From assembly GCA_030295235.1 (NCBI GenBank), contig AP026146.1:496001-560000 (forward strand): a stretch of DNA of 64,000 nt, written 5' to 3'. A program made the position numbers and the translations under genes. The number at the start of each line of letters is the position of its first letter. Position 1 is the stretch's first letter. Shown one piece after another: positions 56,533 through 64,000 of the stretch. Source of the DNA: Fistulifera solaris. Lineage: Eukaryota. A model generated the notes under the pieces. That model saw only the letters and a list, made by a program, of their open reading frames with translations. It searched no databases and was not told the DNA's origin.

Positions 56533-57314
56533 ATGAAGACCTTTGCTGTAGCCGCTGTGGCCCTTGCTGCTTCTCTCGGAGCCGAGGCCTTCTCGACTGG
56601 ATCCCTTTCAAGTCAGCGTCCGTCTTTGACGGTTGTCAACGGTGTGAGTGTTTCTTGTTGCATAGATCCGCAAATGCGTATATAGTAGTCTCACAAAAGT
56701 CAACTTATTACATGCAGTACGTTCCGGACGGTTTCACACCCGAGTCGTACAAAAAGTTCAAGGAGGAGGAGAGAAAAAAGAATGAAAAGAAAAATTTGGG
56801 TCGAGTGGGCCCCAAAGGATTCAAGTCGCGCAGGTAGGTTGGCGAGGCTTTCATTCTTGTTAGTTCTACTTCAATAAAATCTAAGTTCCCTGGCAGCTTT
56901 CAATCCTTCCAAGAAGCACTTGAGCGCGGAGAAGCCACTCACTTACTGCCCGTCATGAATGCGAAAGAGCGTGTCAAGAAGGGAGAATTGAAATGGGAAG
57001 ATATTCCGTACATGCAACGAGGAGGATCATGGGACAACAGTGACGTGAAAGGAGCCAAGAAAGTGCGCTGGTTGCAATCCGACAAGGAGTACGCGAACGG
57101 AGGATATTTGAAAGAGCAATCGGTGTCGATTTTCGGTTATGGGCAAGGTTTGGACTGGACCGGAACACGCTCTCGTTCGGGCCCCGCAGAATCCGTTCCC
57201 GGCGCGGCTCCCAAGTTTGCGAAAAACTACAAGGCCCCGAATGTCAACAGTATGAAAGGCGTCCAAGCGTCCAAGGAAGAAACGCCCAAAAAGAAGTTTT
57301 TTGGACTCTTTTAA
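56533..57314 (+). CDS. Plastid-targeted basic protein of unknown function (two introns)
   Basis: Signal peptide ending AEA-F. Exons YVPDGFTPESYKK...GFKSR and SFQSFQEALERG...IPYMQRGGSWDNSD...KKFFGLF are joined by GT-AG introns at about 56644-56717 and 56834-56895. Confidence 0.8.
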
Positions 57315-57700: not shown

Positions 57701-60269
57701 ATGATTACAAAAGCTTCTTTACTTTGGTGCATCTTGTATTCTACGATGCGAATGCTTTCACAACAATTCGCACTCCGAAAACGAGCATCATCTTGTTCGA
57801 AGGACGAAATTCGTTCCTTCCCGATCTTTCCGATCTCGCTAAACCGTTAAATGGATTCTTTGGTCCCAGTCGCACCGATGATTCCACGGCTTCGTCACCA
57901 GTGACATTTACATCCACACCGGAAGGACTGGTACTGCAAGCCAAACGCGTTTTGAACTCGGATCTTGGTTTACTCGATCCATCGTTATTGGATGACGAAA
58001 AATTTCAATGGTGAGTCCTACCGTCGACAAGCCTCTCGATAAAACCGATTATCTGGCCGCCGGTCGTTTCTTTGATTTGCGTGCAGCATTTCCGGATCTC
58101 AATTACCGCGCGCATGATTTTCGCATTGATATTGATGATGATGCGACCGTTCGATGCACGTGCCGGATTACGGGGACAATGCGCGGTGCATTGCGGCTGC
58201 GGGACGTATCTTGTCTCCCACCGGAAAGACCATGATCTGTCCGCCGGAAGGATTCAGCATGACATTCGATTTGGAGTCCGGAAAGCTTGTTAAACTTTGC
58301 ACCGGCTTTGCGATGGATCGTTTGGTCGGTAATACGCAAGGGACGACGGGGTTGTTGCTGCCGCCATTACGGGAGGCCAACCAATCTCCGATTGGGATAT
58401 ATACCCACCTGCTACGGTATTGAAACGCTTTTTCGGTAGACCGGTCAAGCCACTTCCGGAAGTATCCAACTTTTTGGCTCCGTTCCCTGAAACTGTCATG
58501 ATACAGCTGGCGAAAGGTATTATCGGTTCGAATATGGCCTCCGTCGACCCTTCCTTGTTAGCACAAAGCTTCACTTACATGACACCTTCACTTGGGCCCA
58601 TTGGAAAGGAAGAATTTCTTGAAAACTTTGCAAAAGAAGAATTTCAAGATGTTGATCCTCGTATCAGTAACTATCGTGTCGATCCGTATGACCCAGAACG
58701 TGTCTGGGTAGATCTGAAACCCGTCGGCACCGGTTATCAGGGTACACCACAGGCCATGTCCTTCACGTTTGATGGGGATGGATTTTGTACGAGAATCACC
58801 GCCGGAGCCGTCTTGGATCCGACCATTGGAAATGGTGGTGGGCTGGGGGGACCGGAAGGTTTGAAATATGCTCGCGGCCAGGCCTCCAATCCGTTAACAA
58901 CTCGACCTCTTCCTCGACTTTTGGCCCGTATCAAAAGGATGCGCTCGCTCCCTTGTCGGGCGTTGCACAGAAAGCATCGACAGTCCAAACAGTAATCTCG
59001 ATACCGAATAGTGCCGAGCCGCCTCGAGCGAAACGTACACCCGCTGCCCCACAGGAGAAACAATTAACACCCTTGGAAAAGCTTTCGGCGTCGGTGGGTG
59101 GGTCGATTAATTTATCCAATCTGGTCAAAGAGGAAAAGGCACCTTCTCCAGCGGTAAAGAGTTCTTCTCCCCCAGTAAGCAAGTCGGTGAAGCAACAATC
59201 GCCTCCATCGAGCATCAAACCACCACCTCCAAAATCGCCGCCGCAAGCCGTACGTCCTACGCCACCTCCTCCACCCAAGAATACCACGCCATTTCCCACG
59301 AAATCTCTGACGTTGCCTCTGGGAAGTATCAACATTCGCACACCTCCAACTCCTTCCTCTCCTAGCAAAGGTGCTAGCTCAATCGCAAAAAACGCGGCCG
59401 ACAAAGCAGCTCAGGCAAAACAGGAACAAAAACGAAAAGAGGCCGCCGAAGCTGCCAAAAAACAGTCTTTGGCCAAGGCTGCGGAACAAGCAGCCCGAAA
59501 GAAAGAAGAGGCGCGAAAAGCAGAGGCAACCAGAATAGAAATGGAACAAAAGAAAGAAGCAACCAGAAGGGCGAGCGAAGCCAAAGCAAAGCAAGAACAA
59601 GCTAAACGAGATCAGGAAGCTGCTCGAGAGCGACTTGTGGCGGACGGCAAGGCCAAGGCAGAAGCGACCAAACGAGCTATGGAACAACAGAAGCAAGCAG
59701 AAGCGCTGCAGAAGAAAAAAGCGGCAGCAATAAAAGAAATGGAAGAAAAGCGTCGCAAAGTGGAGTCTCTGACATCTTTGAACAAAGCGACATCCAGAGC
59801 CACGATCAGCCTCTTCGGGCGTCAGGAAACTACTGCATTGACCTCACCGAAACGTGATTCACAACCAAGTAGGAGTGTCGAAGTCGATCAACAACGTCGT
59901 GATTCGGAAAAGGACCAGAAGGAACGGGAGGAAGCGGCTTTGGCAATGCTTGCGAAAGCCGCTTCGAGAGCCACAATCAACTTGCTTGGATTAAAGAATC
60001 TGGACAACGAACCGTCAAAGTCACCGCAGAAAAAAAGGAATTACCGGCTACACTACCAAAGAGACCGGCTTCCACGAGCAAGGCACCGCAGGGTGCCAAC
60101 GCTTTCGCGATGGCGTGAAAATGCTGATGGCTCCGTTACAGGTAATGTATCGGGGTCGAGAAACTTTACAGATGGAGAAAAGATTACAACCAGCAAAATT
60201 GTGAGAGGGACTTTCGCCTCGGGTGAGATTGTCGTGACTGGTAGTGGCTCCAAGTATTATTTAAATTAG
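57701..60269 (+). CDS. Plastid-targeted multidomain protein: tandem SnoaL/NTF2-like domains, Pro-rich linker, coiled coil, small C-terminal beta domain (several frameshifts)
   Basis: ANA-F presequence. Two related units (AFPDLNYRAHDFRID...GNTQG and ISNYRVDPYDPERVW...IGNGGG), an A/K/E/Q-rich helix, and terminal WRENADGSVTG...ITTS...TGSGSKYYL. Confidence 0.65.
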
Positions 60270-60285: not shown

Positions 60286-63137
60286 CTACGAGATTCGCTT
60301 AGGATTATCACGAATGGATTCGAGCTGTGCTCGAGGTAGAATTTCGTGTTTAGAGTTGACGGGCTGACTAACCCCGTCAAAAATGTCATCCCAATCCTGA
60401 GCGTCTTTGCCATAGCCCCAAGTCATCACTTCATCCCAGTTGTCTATTTGTTGACTTAGTGGCACTTGAGCCTGCTTCTTCAAAATAGTTTTCTCAATGA
60501 TTTGCTCAGCGAGATCATTTCCAACTACTCCAAGCCGCTCTTGAAGGCGTCCGACTGTCTTTATCTGCGCACCACGATTGCTAAGATCGCGTCCATACTC
60601 AAAAACATCGATATCAATACCATTTGCAGCCAAACCGTCTCGAATACTTTCGTAGTACCGCCTTTTCTCGCCTATAAAAAGCTCCAGCTCGAGTCTGTCT
60701 ACGCGAATAATATCTTTCTCGGTCGAATTTCCCAATAACCAAACATTCTTTTTAACAGCAATTTCGTAGGAAACAAAGGTTTCGATGATGCTACGTCTCC
60801 AGAGGACAATGGGGACGCACTTTACTTGTCCAAGACTCTGAAGAAACTGGATTGGGCTCATAGAGAGTTCGTTAAGATGTTCACGGAAAATTTTGAACGC
60901 CAGAATTGAATGTTCTGATGCTGATGGTATGCTACTTATGTAGTTGATCCAGTCAGCTTGTCTCTTGTAGCGACTGTTGAAAACGTCCATAAGCTTTTGG
61001 TATGTCAGTGACCAGGCTCTTCCACTTTCTTCTTTCAGGCGAGCGAAAAACCTCTTATTGGTGCTGTAAGCCCATGTCTCGTCTCCATCGTCGATGTGCA
61101 TTGGTAGGTTACATCCTTCATGCATTGCGTTTACACAGCGCCGAAGCAATCGTACCTGCTCGGCTTCATCATGAGTGTAAGGTTCGAGCATATTGCGAAT
61201 ATCTAGGACGTCTCCTGCACCATCGTGTAGCCCGTCGAGGATATTGAAAAACAGGTTCGATCCAGTACGTGGCTCTCCAAATACCACCAATGATTCACGT
61301 GGTTTAACGGTTGCGTATGTGTGAGCGGGGCATGCCCTAAGAGTCGAAGAATCCTGAAGGTCAACGAGGCTCAGATGACTCGAGTTTTGGAGCCCATCGC
61401 TCGTTTGCTGTGGGGAGAACAATTTACTTGAGCACACACTTAATTTTGGACAAGTCAAATCAAACTTACCGAATAGGTCAACACCATGAAGCAGTTCACG
61501 ACAACGATAAAAACAACACCAAAGCCACGTTGCTTTTGCTGGCTAAAAGACATGCAAAAGGTTTCGACATGGTTGCAGTATTTGGTGATCAAGAAAGAGA
61601 AGTTTACCCAGTATAATCCGATGCAAATTATCATGTTCATCGCTCTGATGAAAATGTCAAAGAGCCCGTAGCCATGCAGTCTTCCATCCAAAGCGAATAC
61701 GTAAATGGTTTGATGAAAAGCCAAGCACAAACCAGCAGAAGCAGTTAAGTCGTCGGTAGGACAAACTTTTATCTTTCGTGCGTTTGTTTTCTCGCAAACG
61801 TTGTTCTTTAGCCCCGCTTTCGGTGTCGTCAAGAATGTCGCATCATCAGAAAAGAAACCTTCCAAAACAGCCTTGACTTCGAATGCTGACATACCAAAAC
61901 GAAGTGCAAAGTACGGCAGAATGACGTTGAGGCGCAACAGACGTGACCACCAAAGGTTGTAATAGCCATTCTCGCTGGGGACCTTTTTCGTAAGAGCGTG
62001 GAGCGCCGAGGCAACAGGTTCAACGATAGCCGAAACGGAGACGGCCTTGACCATTAAAGAATCAATCTGATGGTAAACAAGATATGGATAGACCATGAAA
62101 ACCAATGCCGTCATAATCAATTGCAAAGGCCCACACAAATGCAAAAAGGCTTCCAATTTGACCTGAAAAGGAGTGTGCGGCGAGACCAAAACTTCCCCAT
62201 AAAATATGCGAAGTACTTGAATAAATCCTTTTGTCCACCGCTGTTTTTGTTGAACGTGTGCTAGAAAATTCCCAGGTACTTCGAGCTGCTGGGGCGCAGT
62301 GCGAACATAATGAAACTCATATCCAGCGAGGTATGCCTTGTAGGAAAGAAGTAAATCTTCGGTGACCGTGTCCGAGCTGAAAAGGCCAGCTGCTTGGATG
62401 GCATCTCTTCTCCAAACACCTCCAGTACCGTTGAAGCCAAATACGCCATGGACACGATGACGACCGACTTGCTCTACAACGTGATGAATATCCAACCCAA
62501 GAGCATCACACTCGGTCAAAAGGTTCTCGTGCGTATTGTAATAGCTCCAAGGGGTTTGAACGAGCCCAATATGATCTTTGCACTCGCCGTTTGCGTCATA
62601 GAAATGCGGAATTGTTTTTCGAAGAAAGTCGGTAGTAATTTGATGATCGGCATCAAGATAAGCCACGAATTCGCCTTCAATGAAAGGAAAGTTGTGATTG
62701 AGATTGCCAGCCTTGTAACCAACGCGATTCGGTCGAGCATGCCGCGAAACGTTAAAGCCCTTTTCTCTCCACTCGACGACGGAATTCTCAATAATGGCAA
62801 TACTTTCCTTTTCGGTCGAGTCATCACAGATTTGAATGCTGAGTTTATGTAGCGGCCAATCCAACTTACAGCAGCGTGTAATCGTTTCCTCCACCACATG
62901 TGCCTCGTTGTAGGTGCATATTTGAATAGTGACATGCGGTTCCTTACCCTGTAATAGATCAGGAGGACACGCGTCTTCTGCAGATGACTCGAAGTAGAAG
63001 CAGTAGATCGATACGAGCAAGTTCTTCCAACGGGAAAAGCTATAAAGCCATATTCCGGTTGATGCAGTGAAGAAGACGATCAGGAGAGGCAAATGCCAGG
63101 GGTCGTTCTCGTGAAAAGGATGCAGCGAGATGAGCAT
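60286..63137 (-). CDS. GT2 (cellulose-synthase-like/CslA-type) glycosyltransferase fused to a sulfotransferase domain (predicted intron 61469-61408)
   Basis: GT2 motifs QICTYNE, DDS, YKAGNL, DAD, VQTPW, FNGTGGVWR, TED, QKQRW plus TM helices. Sulfotransferase motifs EPRTGSN and LWRR....FVSY. A phase-0 GTAAGT...CCACAG intron joins them in frame. Confidence 0.8.
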
Positions 63138-64000
63138 CGTTCCGCCCTCTTTGATATTGTAATTTGATTAGAGCGATTGATTTCATTTGTCGCCAATGAA
63201 TCATTTGCATTTGTTGAATTTAGAAGTGATGTTGGCTAAACGGGTCGAAAAGTGACCATCCGATCATTCCGATTGTTTCAATGTTGTATGCATAAGATGG
63301 AAGTGATGCGTGACCTGTTAAGTGTGAACCATATTTCTATTGTGCAAGGGACCTTCTCTTAGTCGTAGTTCCTCTTTGCTACGGTGAAAGCAGGTCTGTC
63401 TTGACTAACTCTCGTCGATCTTAGCAGGATCAAAATACAGCAATTCAGCTTTTGGCATGTCTTACTTTTTATTTATGAAAAGCAAGAGCAGAAGATGACG
63501 ACAGCTCACTTCTCCCTCCTCGTGTGTGCACACAGGCTCCTCCTACTCCTCGTTTAAAACTGTGGAAAACAATCAAACGAGTACCAGTTTTGATCTAGCA
63601 TAAATACTTCGCAACAAAGTGGCTTCTGTTTTATCAGAGCATCATCGACATTCCTTAATGTTCTCAAAACTCCTTGTCACGAATGAAAGCTACGTACTTT
63701 CTGCTAATTTGGTAACTTGTTATTGGATTTAACGCACCCTGAAAATCTCTTGCAACATAGTTGGTAACCCATTGTTGATTTTATCACAATGCATTTTCTC
63801 TGCACCGTTTGCATAGCAATGGTCAAAATTTCGAAATCCTCGTCGACTATCGATCCAAAGTGTATAATCAACTTTACCACGACTGCTTTTCAGTCATGAT
63901 TCATGATCCTTCTGATCAGCCTGTTGTGAAACTTCGTTCGTTCTCCCAGTGGGCGAGACATTCTTCTAATTGCCTATTTGACAATACCTTTTACCTGCTT

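What the first reader, a model, noticed from the sequence alone, without database searches (positions are those of the whole stretch)
60286..63137. GT2 glycan synthase-sulfotransferase fusion: candidate one-gene sulfated polysaccharide synthase
Seen: the two adjacent ORFs are joined by a canonical phase-0 intron (TCG|GTAAGT at 61469 ... CCCCACAG|CAA at 61408, 62 nt; other introns here are 58-63 nt) that removes the GT2 stop. The product is a processive-type GT2 (D,D,D,QxxRW with TM helices), a final TM helix, then a domain with PAPS-binding motifs (PRTGSN; R...S) of Stf0-like type. The downstream ORF has no ATG or signal of its own before its first motif. Established: CslA-type GT2s make beta-mannans or glucans, and diatoms produce sulfated wall and extracellular polysaccharides whose synthases are poorly known. 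Inference: polymerisation, translocation and lumenal sulfation coupled in one polypeptide. Product identity cannot be read from sequence.
Basis: partly seen in the sequence, partly recalled or inferred. Interest (0 to 1): 0.8.

Follow-up and report, generated by a model that had tools for sequence, protein, structure and literature searches.

The report
Diatom glycan synthase carrying a sulfotransferase
A diatom-type gene joins a membrane enzyme that builds sugar chains to a sulfate-adding enzyme on the far side of the membrane, so one protein may both make and sulfate a secreted polysaccharide whose synthesis genes are unknown.

Summary
Confirmed. A 62-nt phase-0 intron (61469-61408, minus strand) joins a 556-aa BcsA-like GT2 exon to a 373-aa exon, giving 929 aa. 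The homeolog keeps the intron, and both exons are under purifying selection (dN/dS 0.12 and 0.31). Paralogues splice at the same place. Five database clusters hold the same GT2+sulfotransferase as one protein; one includes a complete MMETSP transcript ORF. The second domain has no Pfam hit but folds as a PAPS sulfotransferase of Stf0/NodH type, with its PAPS-binding residues kept. Alignment to BcsA and charge bias place it in the lumen, opposite the catalytic GT2 domain. Relatives carry other sulfotransferase types, a kinase, a GH7-like domain or a second GT, so this GT2 lineage is a modular synthase platform. Not shown: the spliced RNA in this organism (no RNA covers the junction), processivity, donor sugar, or acceptor. 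'CslA-type' is a resemblance, not tested orthology. I found no paper describing such a fusion. This scan noted it before on the homeolog and a four-domain paralogue (e1-7505482, e1-7505643).

The parts
61470..63137 (-). Exon 1: membrane GT2 glycosyltransferase, 556 aa, with one TM helix before the catalytic domain, four after it and one extra C-terminal helix
   Evidence: Pfam PF13632 E 6e-24; AlphaFold pLDDT 91.5; residues 12-519 align to BcsA 4p00_A 94-577, Z 29.2, rmsd 3.8, 444 aligned
62991..63095 (-). First TM helix plus interface helix (aa 15-49), equivalent to BcsA TM4
   Evidence: helix H15-49 in the model; BcsA alignment range
62355..62363 (-). TED motif (catalytic base Asp261)
   Evidence: E260 and D261 invariant in 108 of 108 rows of A5
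62235..62249 (-). QKQRW (QxxRW) motif, aa 297-301
   Evidence: Q297, R300 and W301 invariant in A5
61473..61535 (-). Extra last TM helix (aa 535-555), preceded by a basic loop; resembles a type II anchor and is inferred to carry the chain into the lumen
   Evidence: H535-555; hydropathy 2.06; more K+R before than after the helix in 11 of 11 fusions examined
61408..61469 (-). 62-nt phase-0 intron GTAAGT...CCCACAG that removes the GT2 stop
   Evidence: same length, phase and ends in homeolog G000:C34; same position in four paralogues on C36/C37
60286..61407 (-). Exon 2: 45-aa stem (sequon NSS) and sulfotransferase domain, 373 aa + stop
   Evidence: dN/dS 0.31 against the homeolog over 343 codons
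60376..61332 (-). PAPS sulfotransferase-fold domain of Stf0/NodH type (fused aa 582-900)
   Evidence: AlphaFold pLDDT 93.1; the first 21 VIA rows are sulfotransferases, Stf0 1tex Z 12.0, rmsd 4.7, 204 aligned; family profile hits 9vki NodH at E 8e-9
61255..61272 (-). 5'-PAPS-binding loop PRTGSN (R603)
   Evidence: Arg in 29 of 34 close rows (4 gaps) and 12 of 13 remote rows of A2
60769..60798 (-). 3'-phosphate-binding strand-turn-helix RRSIIETFVS (R760/R761, S769)
   Evidence: R760, R761 and S769 each in 33 of 34 close rows of A2

Best explanation
One spliced gene encodes a six-helix membrane protein of the secretory pathway. SHOWN: gene structure by conservation, a BcsA-like GT2 core with all catalytic motifs, and a sulfotransferase-fold domain with its PAPS-binding residues. 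INFERRED (about 0.8): the GT2 active site faces the cytosol, and the extra sixth helix puts the sulfotransferase in the lumen, the side where a translocated chain would emerge. In effect a whole type II Golgi sulfotransferase (anchor, stem, catalytic domain) is welded to the synthase's C-terminus. INFERRED (about 0.6 overall): the GT2 polymerises a glycan from a cytosolic NDP-sugar and pushes it through its own TM channel, and the tethered domain sulfates it from lumenal PAPS, giving a sulfated wall or extracellular polysaccharide. The sugar cannot be read from sequence. An inverting GT2 would give a beta-mannan or beta-glucan from GDP-Man or UDP-Glc, or an alpha-L-fucan from GDP-L-fucose (established GT2 stereochemistry, recalled).
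For: Splicing: the homeolog has the same 62-nt intron, with 31 of 62 intron bases identical ungapped, while the exons are under purifying selection (dN/dS 0.117 and 0.308). Paralogues have phase-0 introns at the same place (71, 72, 75, 77 nt). Of 14 truncated database relatives that reach the last helix, 12 read V-S right after it (the read-through of GTAAGT/GTGAGT), 1 reads V-N and 1 neither; background is 0.8%. Contiguous fusions with the same domain: P0002, P0029, P0033, P0095 (Bacillariaceae MAG) and P0205/P0215, profile E <= 2e-71; P0215 is a complete MMETSP transcript ORF. Fold. Topology: model residue 519 aligns to BcsA 577, next to the cytosolic R580/PilZ linker (PMC8892547, passages); charge bias in 11 of 11 fusions; 12 of 13 stand-alone family members have an N-terminal hydrophobic anchor; two Cys are kept (C582 in 23 of 34 rows with 11 gaps, C655 in 32 of 34); a sister-clade tail at the equivalent cytosolic position carries an IQ motif. 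Recurrence: other sulfotransferase types were attached to this GT2 lineage in Odontella aurita transcripts (P0211/P0214) and N-terminally in Chrysophaeum taylorii (P0118; hhalign 97.4%).
Against: No RNA from this organism spans the junction, so splicing here is inferred. The sulfotransferase domain itself hits no Pfam, NCBIfam or PDB sequence. Its Foldseek TM-scores are only 0.35-0.39, and P-loop kinases follow closely (best Z 9.4). BcsA's channel uses TM3-8 and the proposed minimal core has two helices before the GT domain (PMC8892547), whereas this protein has one, so a complete channel is unproven. The small mannosyltransferase PcManGT aligns nearly as well as BcsA (Z 27.8). Tail-less paralogues and a whole sister clade lack any sulfotransferase, so the GT2 does not need one. 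Only 7 of 137 GT2 relatives examined carry this domain in the database entry, though many entries are cut at introns. The same domain occurs in many stand-alone genes (28 matches in this genome), so it need not act on this GT2's product.
Confidence: 0.6

Rival explanations
1. The fusion is real, but the GT2 makes a short or lipid-linked glycan (oligosaccharide, glycolipid, polyprenyl-linked sugar) that the second domain sulfates. This would resemble rhizobial NodC/NodH or mycobacterial sulfolipid synthesis rather than a polysaccharide synthase.
For: The closest solved sulfotransferases are Stf0 and NodH, both described as glycolipid-pathway enzymes (PMC11625862, passages). PcManGT aligns at Z 27.8. 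Weak Pfam GT21 hit, E 7e-6. Only one helix precedes the GT domain.
Against: The two helices after the gating loop and the FxxTPK loop are kept in the window protein and in the 11 relatives checked (FxxT[PLV]K), and they align to BcsA TM7-8; the PcManGT match stops at residue 431. The two active sites lie on opposite sides of the membrane, which calls for translocation. Relatives carry GH7-like and second-GT domains, which fit a polymer.
Confidence: 0.15
2. The GT2 is a synthase, but the fused sulfotransferase uses it only as a membrane anchor and sulfates other lumenal acceptors (glycoprotein glycans, side chains, other polysaccharides).
For: The same domain family occurs as stand-alone anchored proteins with 1-5 copies and fused to a GT25 protein (P0037). 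Tail-less GT2 paralogues are intact. The stem is a flexible 45-74 residues.
Against: At least three different sulfotransferase types were attached to this one GT2 lineage, at both ends that are inferred to be lumenal. That is easier to explain by selection for acting on the GT2's product.
Confidence: 0.15
3. Inverted topology: GT2 active site in the lumen and sulfotransferase in the cytosol. Plant CSLA and CSLC are reported to differ in topology.
For: PMC3359485 (passage) states that CSLA and CSLC differ in membrane topology, and this GT2 resembles that lineage.
Against: Charge bias in 11 of 11 fusions, sequons in the stem of 7 of the 8 same-family fusions scored correctly, the conserved Cys pair, signal-peptide-like N-termini on N-terminally extended relatives (P0205, P0212, P0119, P0206; judged by eye), and the IQ motif in a sister-clade tail.
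Confidence: 0.05
4. Two separate genes, or the intron is mostly retained so the main product is a 560-aa GT2 without the domain.
For: Many in-frame GT..AG pairs exist by chance (36). Database entries for the homeolog stop at the intron (P0088).
Against: Exon 2 has no Met before its PAPS loop, and its 35-codon stem is under purifying selection (dN/dS 0.26). The intron position is conserved in paralogues, and contiguous fusions exist, including a transcript.
Confidence: 0.05

Closest known systems
Bacterial cellulose synthase BcsA (4p00, 9fnn) and other membrane-integrated processive GT2 synthases (plant CesA, hyaluronan synthase)
   Same: D,D,D,QxxRW motifs, TED finger helix, FxxTxK gating loop, and the helix order TM-GT-2TM-interface-gating loop-2TM (Z 29.2, 444 aligned)
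   Different: Only one helix before the GT domain, no PilZ, an extra C-terminal helix, and a fused lumenal sulfotransferase; 18-21% identity; well below NCBIfam CelA cut-off (121.6 vs 699 bits)
BcsA-BcsG complex (synthase plus phosphoethanolamine transferase that decorates nascent cellulose) and ascidian CesA fused to a glycosyl hydrolase domain (PMC8892547, passages)
   Same: Works like: an extracytosolic modifying enzyme held next to the exit of a GT2 synthase
   Different: BcsG is a separate polypeptide with an alkaline-phosphatase fold; here the modifier is a PAPS sulfotransferase in the same chain
Plant CSLA/CSLC (beta-1,4-mannan and glucan backbone synthases) and uncharacterised bacterial 'cellulose synthase family' GT2s of about 490-510 aa
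   Same: Compact size and helix count; ESM feature score 0.98 to a glucomannan 4-beta-mannosyltransferase cluster and to the bacterial clusters; 32-41% identity to the bacterial ones
   Different: The algal proteins form their own clade, apart from the bacterial rows (SH-aLRT 100, quick tree); orthology to CSLA not tested; no fused modifier is known to me in CSLA/CSLC (recalled)
Stf0 / NodH-type sulfotransferases (1tex, 9vki; PF09037)
   Same: Fold (Z 12.0), Arg in place of Lys in the PAPS loop with an RxG motif (PMC11625862), conserved Glu after strand 2, FKxF strand and R...S 3'-phosphate motif
   Different: No direct Pfam or NCBIfam hit; helical insertion and Cys pair typical of the algal family; membrane-tethered and lumenal; occurs in tandem arrays of up to five domains; acceptor unknown

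Membership tests
GT2 membrane-integrated (processive-type) synthases | GT-A catalytic domain with D,D,D,QxxRW | tested here: met
   DDS105, DAD162, TED259, QKQRW297; Pfam PF13632, PF13641 and PF00535 above cut-off
GT2 membrane-integrated (processive-type) synthases | Gating loop FxxTxK and TM helices packed as in BcsA TM4-8 | tested here: met
   FLTTPK 435-440; model 12-519 aligns to 4p00 94-577, Z 29.2, rmsd 3.8
GT2 membrane-integrated (processive-type) synthases | Closed TM channel (BcsA TM3-8) | tested here: inconclusive
   No equivalent of TM3 in sequence order; whether helix 535-555 fills that place could not be read, as no coordinates are returned
GT2 membrane-integrated (processive-type) synthases | Processive polymerisation and translocation | not testable with these tools
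   needs biochemistry or cryo-EM
Plant CSLA mannan synthases | Groups with CSLA in a tree | not tested
   no plant CSLA sequence was returned among the 120 listed of 215 hits, so none was in the tree; only an ESM feature match
Plant CSLA mannan synthases | GDP-mannose-dependent beta-1,4-mannan synthase activity | not testable with these tools
   needs assay
PAPS-dependent sulfotransferase superfamily | Central beta-sheet with PSB loop and 3'-phosphate strand-turn-helix fold | tested here: met
   pLDDT 93.1; first 21 VIA rows are sulfotransferases, Z 9.4-12.0; 8 of 8 Foldseek hits at E <= 0.001 are sulfotransferases
PAPS-dependent sulfotransferase superfamily | PSB Lys/Arg and PB-helix Ser (definition in PMC11625862) | tested here: met
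   R603 and S769 present and conserved in the family
PAPS-dependent sulfotransferase superfamily | Catalytic base (His or Glu) | tested here: inconclusive
   E631 conserved in 31 of 34 close and 11 of 13 remote rows, H733 in 21 of 34; the match of E631 to the Stf0/TPST base is recalled, and the source paper was not held
Stf0 family (Pfam PF09037; NCBIfam NF047724) | Score above the curated cut-off | tested here: not met
   no hit at E <= 1 in Pfam or E <= 0.01 in NCBIfam; only remote relatives hit PF09037. Works like Stf0/NodH; not filed as a member
PAPS-dependent sulfotransferase superfamily | Sulfuryl transfer from PAPS | not testable with these tools
   needs assay

The most novel reading that the evidence does not exclude
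This algal GT2 lineage is a modular 'synthase plus tailoring enzyme' platform. Sulfotransferases of three types, a kinase, a glycoside hydrolase or a second GT were repeatedly welded to its lumenal ends. The sulfotransferase-bearing members are single-chain backbone synthases of diatom sulfated exopolysaccharide, possibly the fucose-containing sulfated polysaccharide tied to carbon export (an inverting GT2 with GDP-L-fucose would give alpha-L-fucan; the fucosyltransferase WrtF shares the catalytic fold), with sulfation density set by the number of tandem domains (0, 1, 2 or 4 in this genome).
Probability: 0.12. Interest if true: 0.92.

Novelty: new variant of a known kind. Interest (0 to 1): 0.64.

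Why it matters
Diatom wall and extracellular glycans are sulfated, and their fine structures are largely unresolved (PMC4584364, passages). A secreted sulfated fucan resists degradation and may drive carbon export (PMC7896085, abstract). Even in brown algae the fucan synthases are unknown (PMC11468063, section 7 part 1). A single ORF carrying both a synthase and a sulfotransferase, with natural 0-, 1-, 2- and 4-domain versions in one genome, gives a direct one-gene test. It would also be a one-gene route to sulfated polysaccharides in a heterologous host. Because the domain escapes Pfam and the intron cuts automatic gene calls, the family is hidden in annotations.

Tried and rejected
RNA evidence: no RNA holder was listed. 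Of three runs laid, X1 behaves as DNA (even cover of intergenic DNA; the homeolog junction unspliced). X2 and X3 do not cover the junction; X2 has one 160-nt contig at 60345-60504. This says nothing for or against splicing. Complex prediction of the two exon products as separate chains gave no answer (score 0.00, alignments not used) and is not used as evidence. Direct Pfam, NCBIfam and PDB sequence searches of exon 2 found nothing real; the Med12 hit at E 0.026 is rejected as chance. Alignment A4 (GT2 and sulfotransferase-only rows together) was misaligned and dropped. The metagenome scan returned 80 loci; the 34 best (L021-L054) were screened and none held the sulfotransferase domain, and the six algal-type loci were sister-clade GT2s or a truncated kinase-GT2. 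The careful tree did not finish; the quick tree (SH-aLRT only, midpoint root, first 20 bacterial rows kept, 9 redundant cluster members left out) is used for grouping only, and independence of the fusions was not tested with test_one_clade. In one search the automatic helix pick was wrong for P0205 and P0012; both were redone. One search used a wrong Pfam accession and is irrelevant. Literature: seven searches (listings and abstract starts only) showed no paper on a GT2-sulfotransferase fusion, and six exact-phrase terms gave 0 papers. Subscription journals are not covered, and the supplements of PMC11468063 (CAZyme tables) were not read and may list such proteins. The P. tricornutum glucuronomannan was considered as the product and not favoured: its backbone is 3-linked mannose (PMC4584364), reported later as alpha (recalled), which an inverting GT2 would not make from GDP-mannose, and PMC3091534 found no Csl gene in P. 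tricornutum or T. pseudonana under a strict filter.
Full report
Observation. The minus strand carries two long frames, 61455-63167 and 60286-61542. Removing 61469-61408 (62 nt, GTAAGT...TTCTCCCCACAG, phase 0) joins a 556-aa exon starting at ATG 63137 to a 373-aa exon, giving 929 aa with no stop. Frame alone is weak evidence: 36 GT..AG pairs near the junction would also be in frame. Three of them use the GTAAGT donor, which occurs 19 times on both strands of the window. Exon 2 has no Met before its PRTGSN motif.

Is the intron real? The genome holds paired contigs. The partner locus on G000:C34 has an intron of the same length, phase and ends, with 31 of 62 bases identical ungapped. The exons show purifying selection: dN/dS 0.117 over 556 GT2 codons, 0.308 over 343 codons of exon 2, and 0.257 in the 35-codon stem. 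Two further loci (C36, C37) each hold two GT2 paralogues with a phase-0 intron after the last helix. One of each pair leads into four (C36) or two (C37) tandem 335-aa copies of the domain; the other leads into a 16-17 aa tail. Among 14 database relatives that end shortly after the last helix, 12 read V-S at that point, 1 V-N and 1 neither. V-S is what an unspliced GTAAGT or GTGAGT encodes, and its background is 0.8%. Four of the 12 are near-identical to this genome's own genes; the other eight are not. I did not see their DNA. Five clusters hold the GT2 and the same domain in one protein: P0002, P0029, P0033, P0095 (an NCBI Bacillariaceae MAG gene model) and P0205. The P0205 cluster includes P0215, a complete MMETSP transcript ORF whose C-terminal domain matches exon 2 at 32% identity, E 2e-54. 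These and P0118 are 7 of 137 GT2 relatives screened. No RNA of this organism covers the junction, so splicing here rests on conservation (about 0.93).

The GT2 half. Pfam places it in GT2, and the best PDB sequence hits are BcsA (E 1e-21). The AlphaFold model (pLDDT 91.5, pTM 0.90) has a helix before the GT domain, the QKQRW interface helix, two TM helices, an interface helix and the FLTTPK gating loop, two more TM helices, and an extra helix at 535-555. Residues 12-519 align to BcsA 94-577 (Z 29.2, rmsd 3.8, 444 aligned). PcManGT follows at Z 27.8 over residues 15-431, CesA8 at 25.1 and hyaluronan synthase at 25.0. In BcsA the GT domain lies between TM4 and TM5, the gating loop between TM6 and TM7, R580 precedes the cytosolic PilZ domain, and TM3-8 form the channel (PMC8892547, passages). 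The protein thus matches TM4-8 plus one new helix; whether that helix completes a channel is open. By features it resembles bacterial 'cellulose synthase family' clusters and a plant glucomannan synthase cluster (0.98). By sequence the nearest non-algal hits are bacterial, at 32-41%. In a quick tree, 36 algal-type rows group apart from 20 bacterial rows, and the window sits in a 15-row clade (SH-aLRT 99) that holds all the same-family C-terminal fusions. Named members come from diatoms (Bacillariaceae, Epithemia, Nitzschia, Extubocellulus, Odontella) and the pelagophyte Chrysophaeum.

The second domain. It has no Pfam, NCBIfam or PDB sequence hit. It has 80 relatives at E <= 0.001 among the 50%-identity representatives, and the remote ones hit Sulfotransfer_1, Sulfotransfer_3 and Stf0. 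A 47-row profile finds the PDB entry named NodH (9vki, E 8.4e-9). The model (pLDDT 93.1) returns sulfotransferases in the first 21 VIA rows. Stf0 is first (Z 12.0, rmsd 4.7, 204 aligned), tied within 1 Z with eight others; the best kinase is at Z 9.4. All 8 Foldseek hits at E <= 0.001 are sulfotransferases, though TM-scores are only 0.35-0.39. The residues that define the superfamily, a PAPS-loop Lys/Arg and a 3'-phosphate helix Ser (PMC11625862, passages), are present and conserved: R603 in 29 of 34 close rows (4 gaps); R760, R761 and S769 in 33 of 34; K728 in 33 of 34; E631 in 31 of 34. That E631 is the catalytic base is recalled by analogy with Stf0 and TPST. It works like Stf0/NodH but fails the curated family cut-offs.

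Topology (inferred). Residue 519 maps to the cytosolic end of BcsA TM8, so helix 535-555 should return to the lumen. K+R are more frequent before than after that helix in 11 of 11 fusions. The stem has an N-glycosylation sequon in 7 of the 8 same-family fusions scored correctly. Twelve of 13 stand-alone family members start with a hydrophobic anchor, so the fusion looks like a whole type II Golgi enzyme attached to the synthase. Relatives extended at the N-terminus begin with signal-peptide-like segments (by eye), which puts the N-terminal side in the lumen too. A sister-clade protein lacking the extra helix has an IQ motif in its tail. Against this, CSLA and CSLC are reported to differ in topology (PMC3359485, passage).

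A modular lineage. The same GT2 group carries Sulfotransfer_2 plus Sulfotransfer_1 domains in two complete Odontella aurita transcript ORFs, unrelated to this family at profile level. It carries an N-terminal Stf0-like domain in a Chrysophaeum gene model (hhalign 97.4%), an N-terminal kinase plus the C-terminal sulfotransferase (P0205), a GH7-like domain (P0212), DUF6492 (P0119, P0120), or a second GT-like domain in place of the sulfotransferase (P0094; Pfam E 0.04, weak). All 11 checked keep the GT2 motifs. Gene models and assemblies can be chimeric, and I did not test statistically that the fusions are independent. Still, three sulfotransferase types at both lumenal ends point to selection for sulfating what this GT2 makes.

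Mechanism. Best reading (0.6): cytosolic polymerisation, passage through the TM region, and sulfation in the lumen by the tethered domain. Rivals: a short or lipid-linked product (0.15), an anchor-only fusion (0.15), inverted topology (0.05), and no fusion (0.05). The sugar is unknown.

Known systems and novelty. It works like BcsA with BcsG, or ascidian CesA with its fused hydrolase (PMC8892547), but with a sulfotransferase in the same chain. Seven literature searches (listings only) showed no description of such a fusion. Passages of PMC11468063 mention a GT74-GT2 bimodular protein and a clustered sulfotransferase but no GT2-sulfotransferase, and say fucan synthases are unknown; its supplements were not read. 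PMC3091534 (passages) found no Csl gene in the two model diatoms. PMC4584364 (passages) and PMC7896085 (abstract) give the biological setting. This scan had already noted the homeolog, the four-domain paralogue, the tail-less twin and the stand-alone arrays; I re-derived these from the DNA before reading the notes. Verdict: a real, uncharacterised architecture, a new variant of a known kind, interest 0.64.

Noticed in passing
L011:4000-9901 (G000:C36:652000-657900) and L013:4470-8420 (G000:C37): Paralogous GT2 followed by four (C36) or two (C37) tandem 335-aa sulfotransferase domains. Two of the C36 copies are identical over 930 nt and a third is 98.7% alike: a very recent expansion or an assembly effect.
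   Followed up: partly
L011:700-2600 and L013:1050-2960: Adjacent tail-less GT2 paralogue with the same intron position but only a 16-17 aa last exon; a natural control without sulfotransferase.
   Followed up: partly
L015-L019 (G000:C23:70000-87700, C24:67500-81600): Arrays of anchored sulfotransferase-only genes with up to five tandem domains (P0008). Several copies are split across frames in this assembly (introns, frameshifts or sequencing errors).
   Followed up: partly
window 60286-60375 vs L009: The last 26-29 aa of the window protein are absent from the homeolog, which stops three residues after the conserved DIF; the tail is probably dispensable.
   Followed up: yes
P0205/P0215 and L033:62-2162: Signal-peptide-like start, protein-kinase-like domain (HNDLHPGN, ADFN), GT2 and sulfotransferase in one chain: a candidate enzyme that phosphorylates and sulfates. 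L033 is a second kinase-GT2 instance, with a stop in the kinase frame and cut by the contig end.
   Followed up: partly
P0211/P0214 (Odontella aurita) and P0118 (Chrysophaeum taylorii): Same GT2 lineage fused to other sulfotransferase types, or with the sulfotransferase-like domain at the N-terminus.
   Followed up: partly
P0212, P0094, P0119, P0120, P0209: GT2 relatives with an N-terminal GH7-like domain, a C-terminal second GT-like domain, N-terminal DUF6492, or an IQ motif in the tail.
   Followed up: partly
P0037: 1969-aa protein with GT25, this sulfotransferase family and a Sulfotransfer_1 domain: another GT-sulfotransferase multidomain protein.
   Followed up: no
L010:8554-9147 (G000:C35, about 8 kb beyond the GT2 start, outside the window): ORF with a YAFSTENW motif, recalled as typical of cis-prenyltransferases; not searched, may be unrelated.
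   Followed up: no
window 58773-60269 (+): 498-aa low-complexity Pro/Ser- then Lys/Glu/Ala-rich frame that ends 16 nt from the fusion's stop, convergent; X2 contigs cover parts of it.
   Followed up: no
window 56533-57314 (+): Small gene with a signal-like N-terminus and two likely introns, read by eye as 56644-56717 (74 nt) and 56834-56896 (63 nt).
   Followed up: no
G000:C15:38756-42295: Two weak GT2 matches (E 6e-6 and 3e-4), more distant family members.
   Followed up: no
ESM Atlas hits for window 60370-61335: Two of the nearest clusters for the sulfotransferase domain are mostly phage proteins (Uroviricota), one named Stf0-domain.
   Followed up: no
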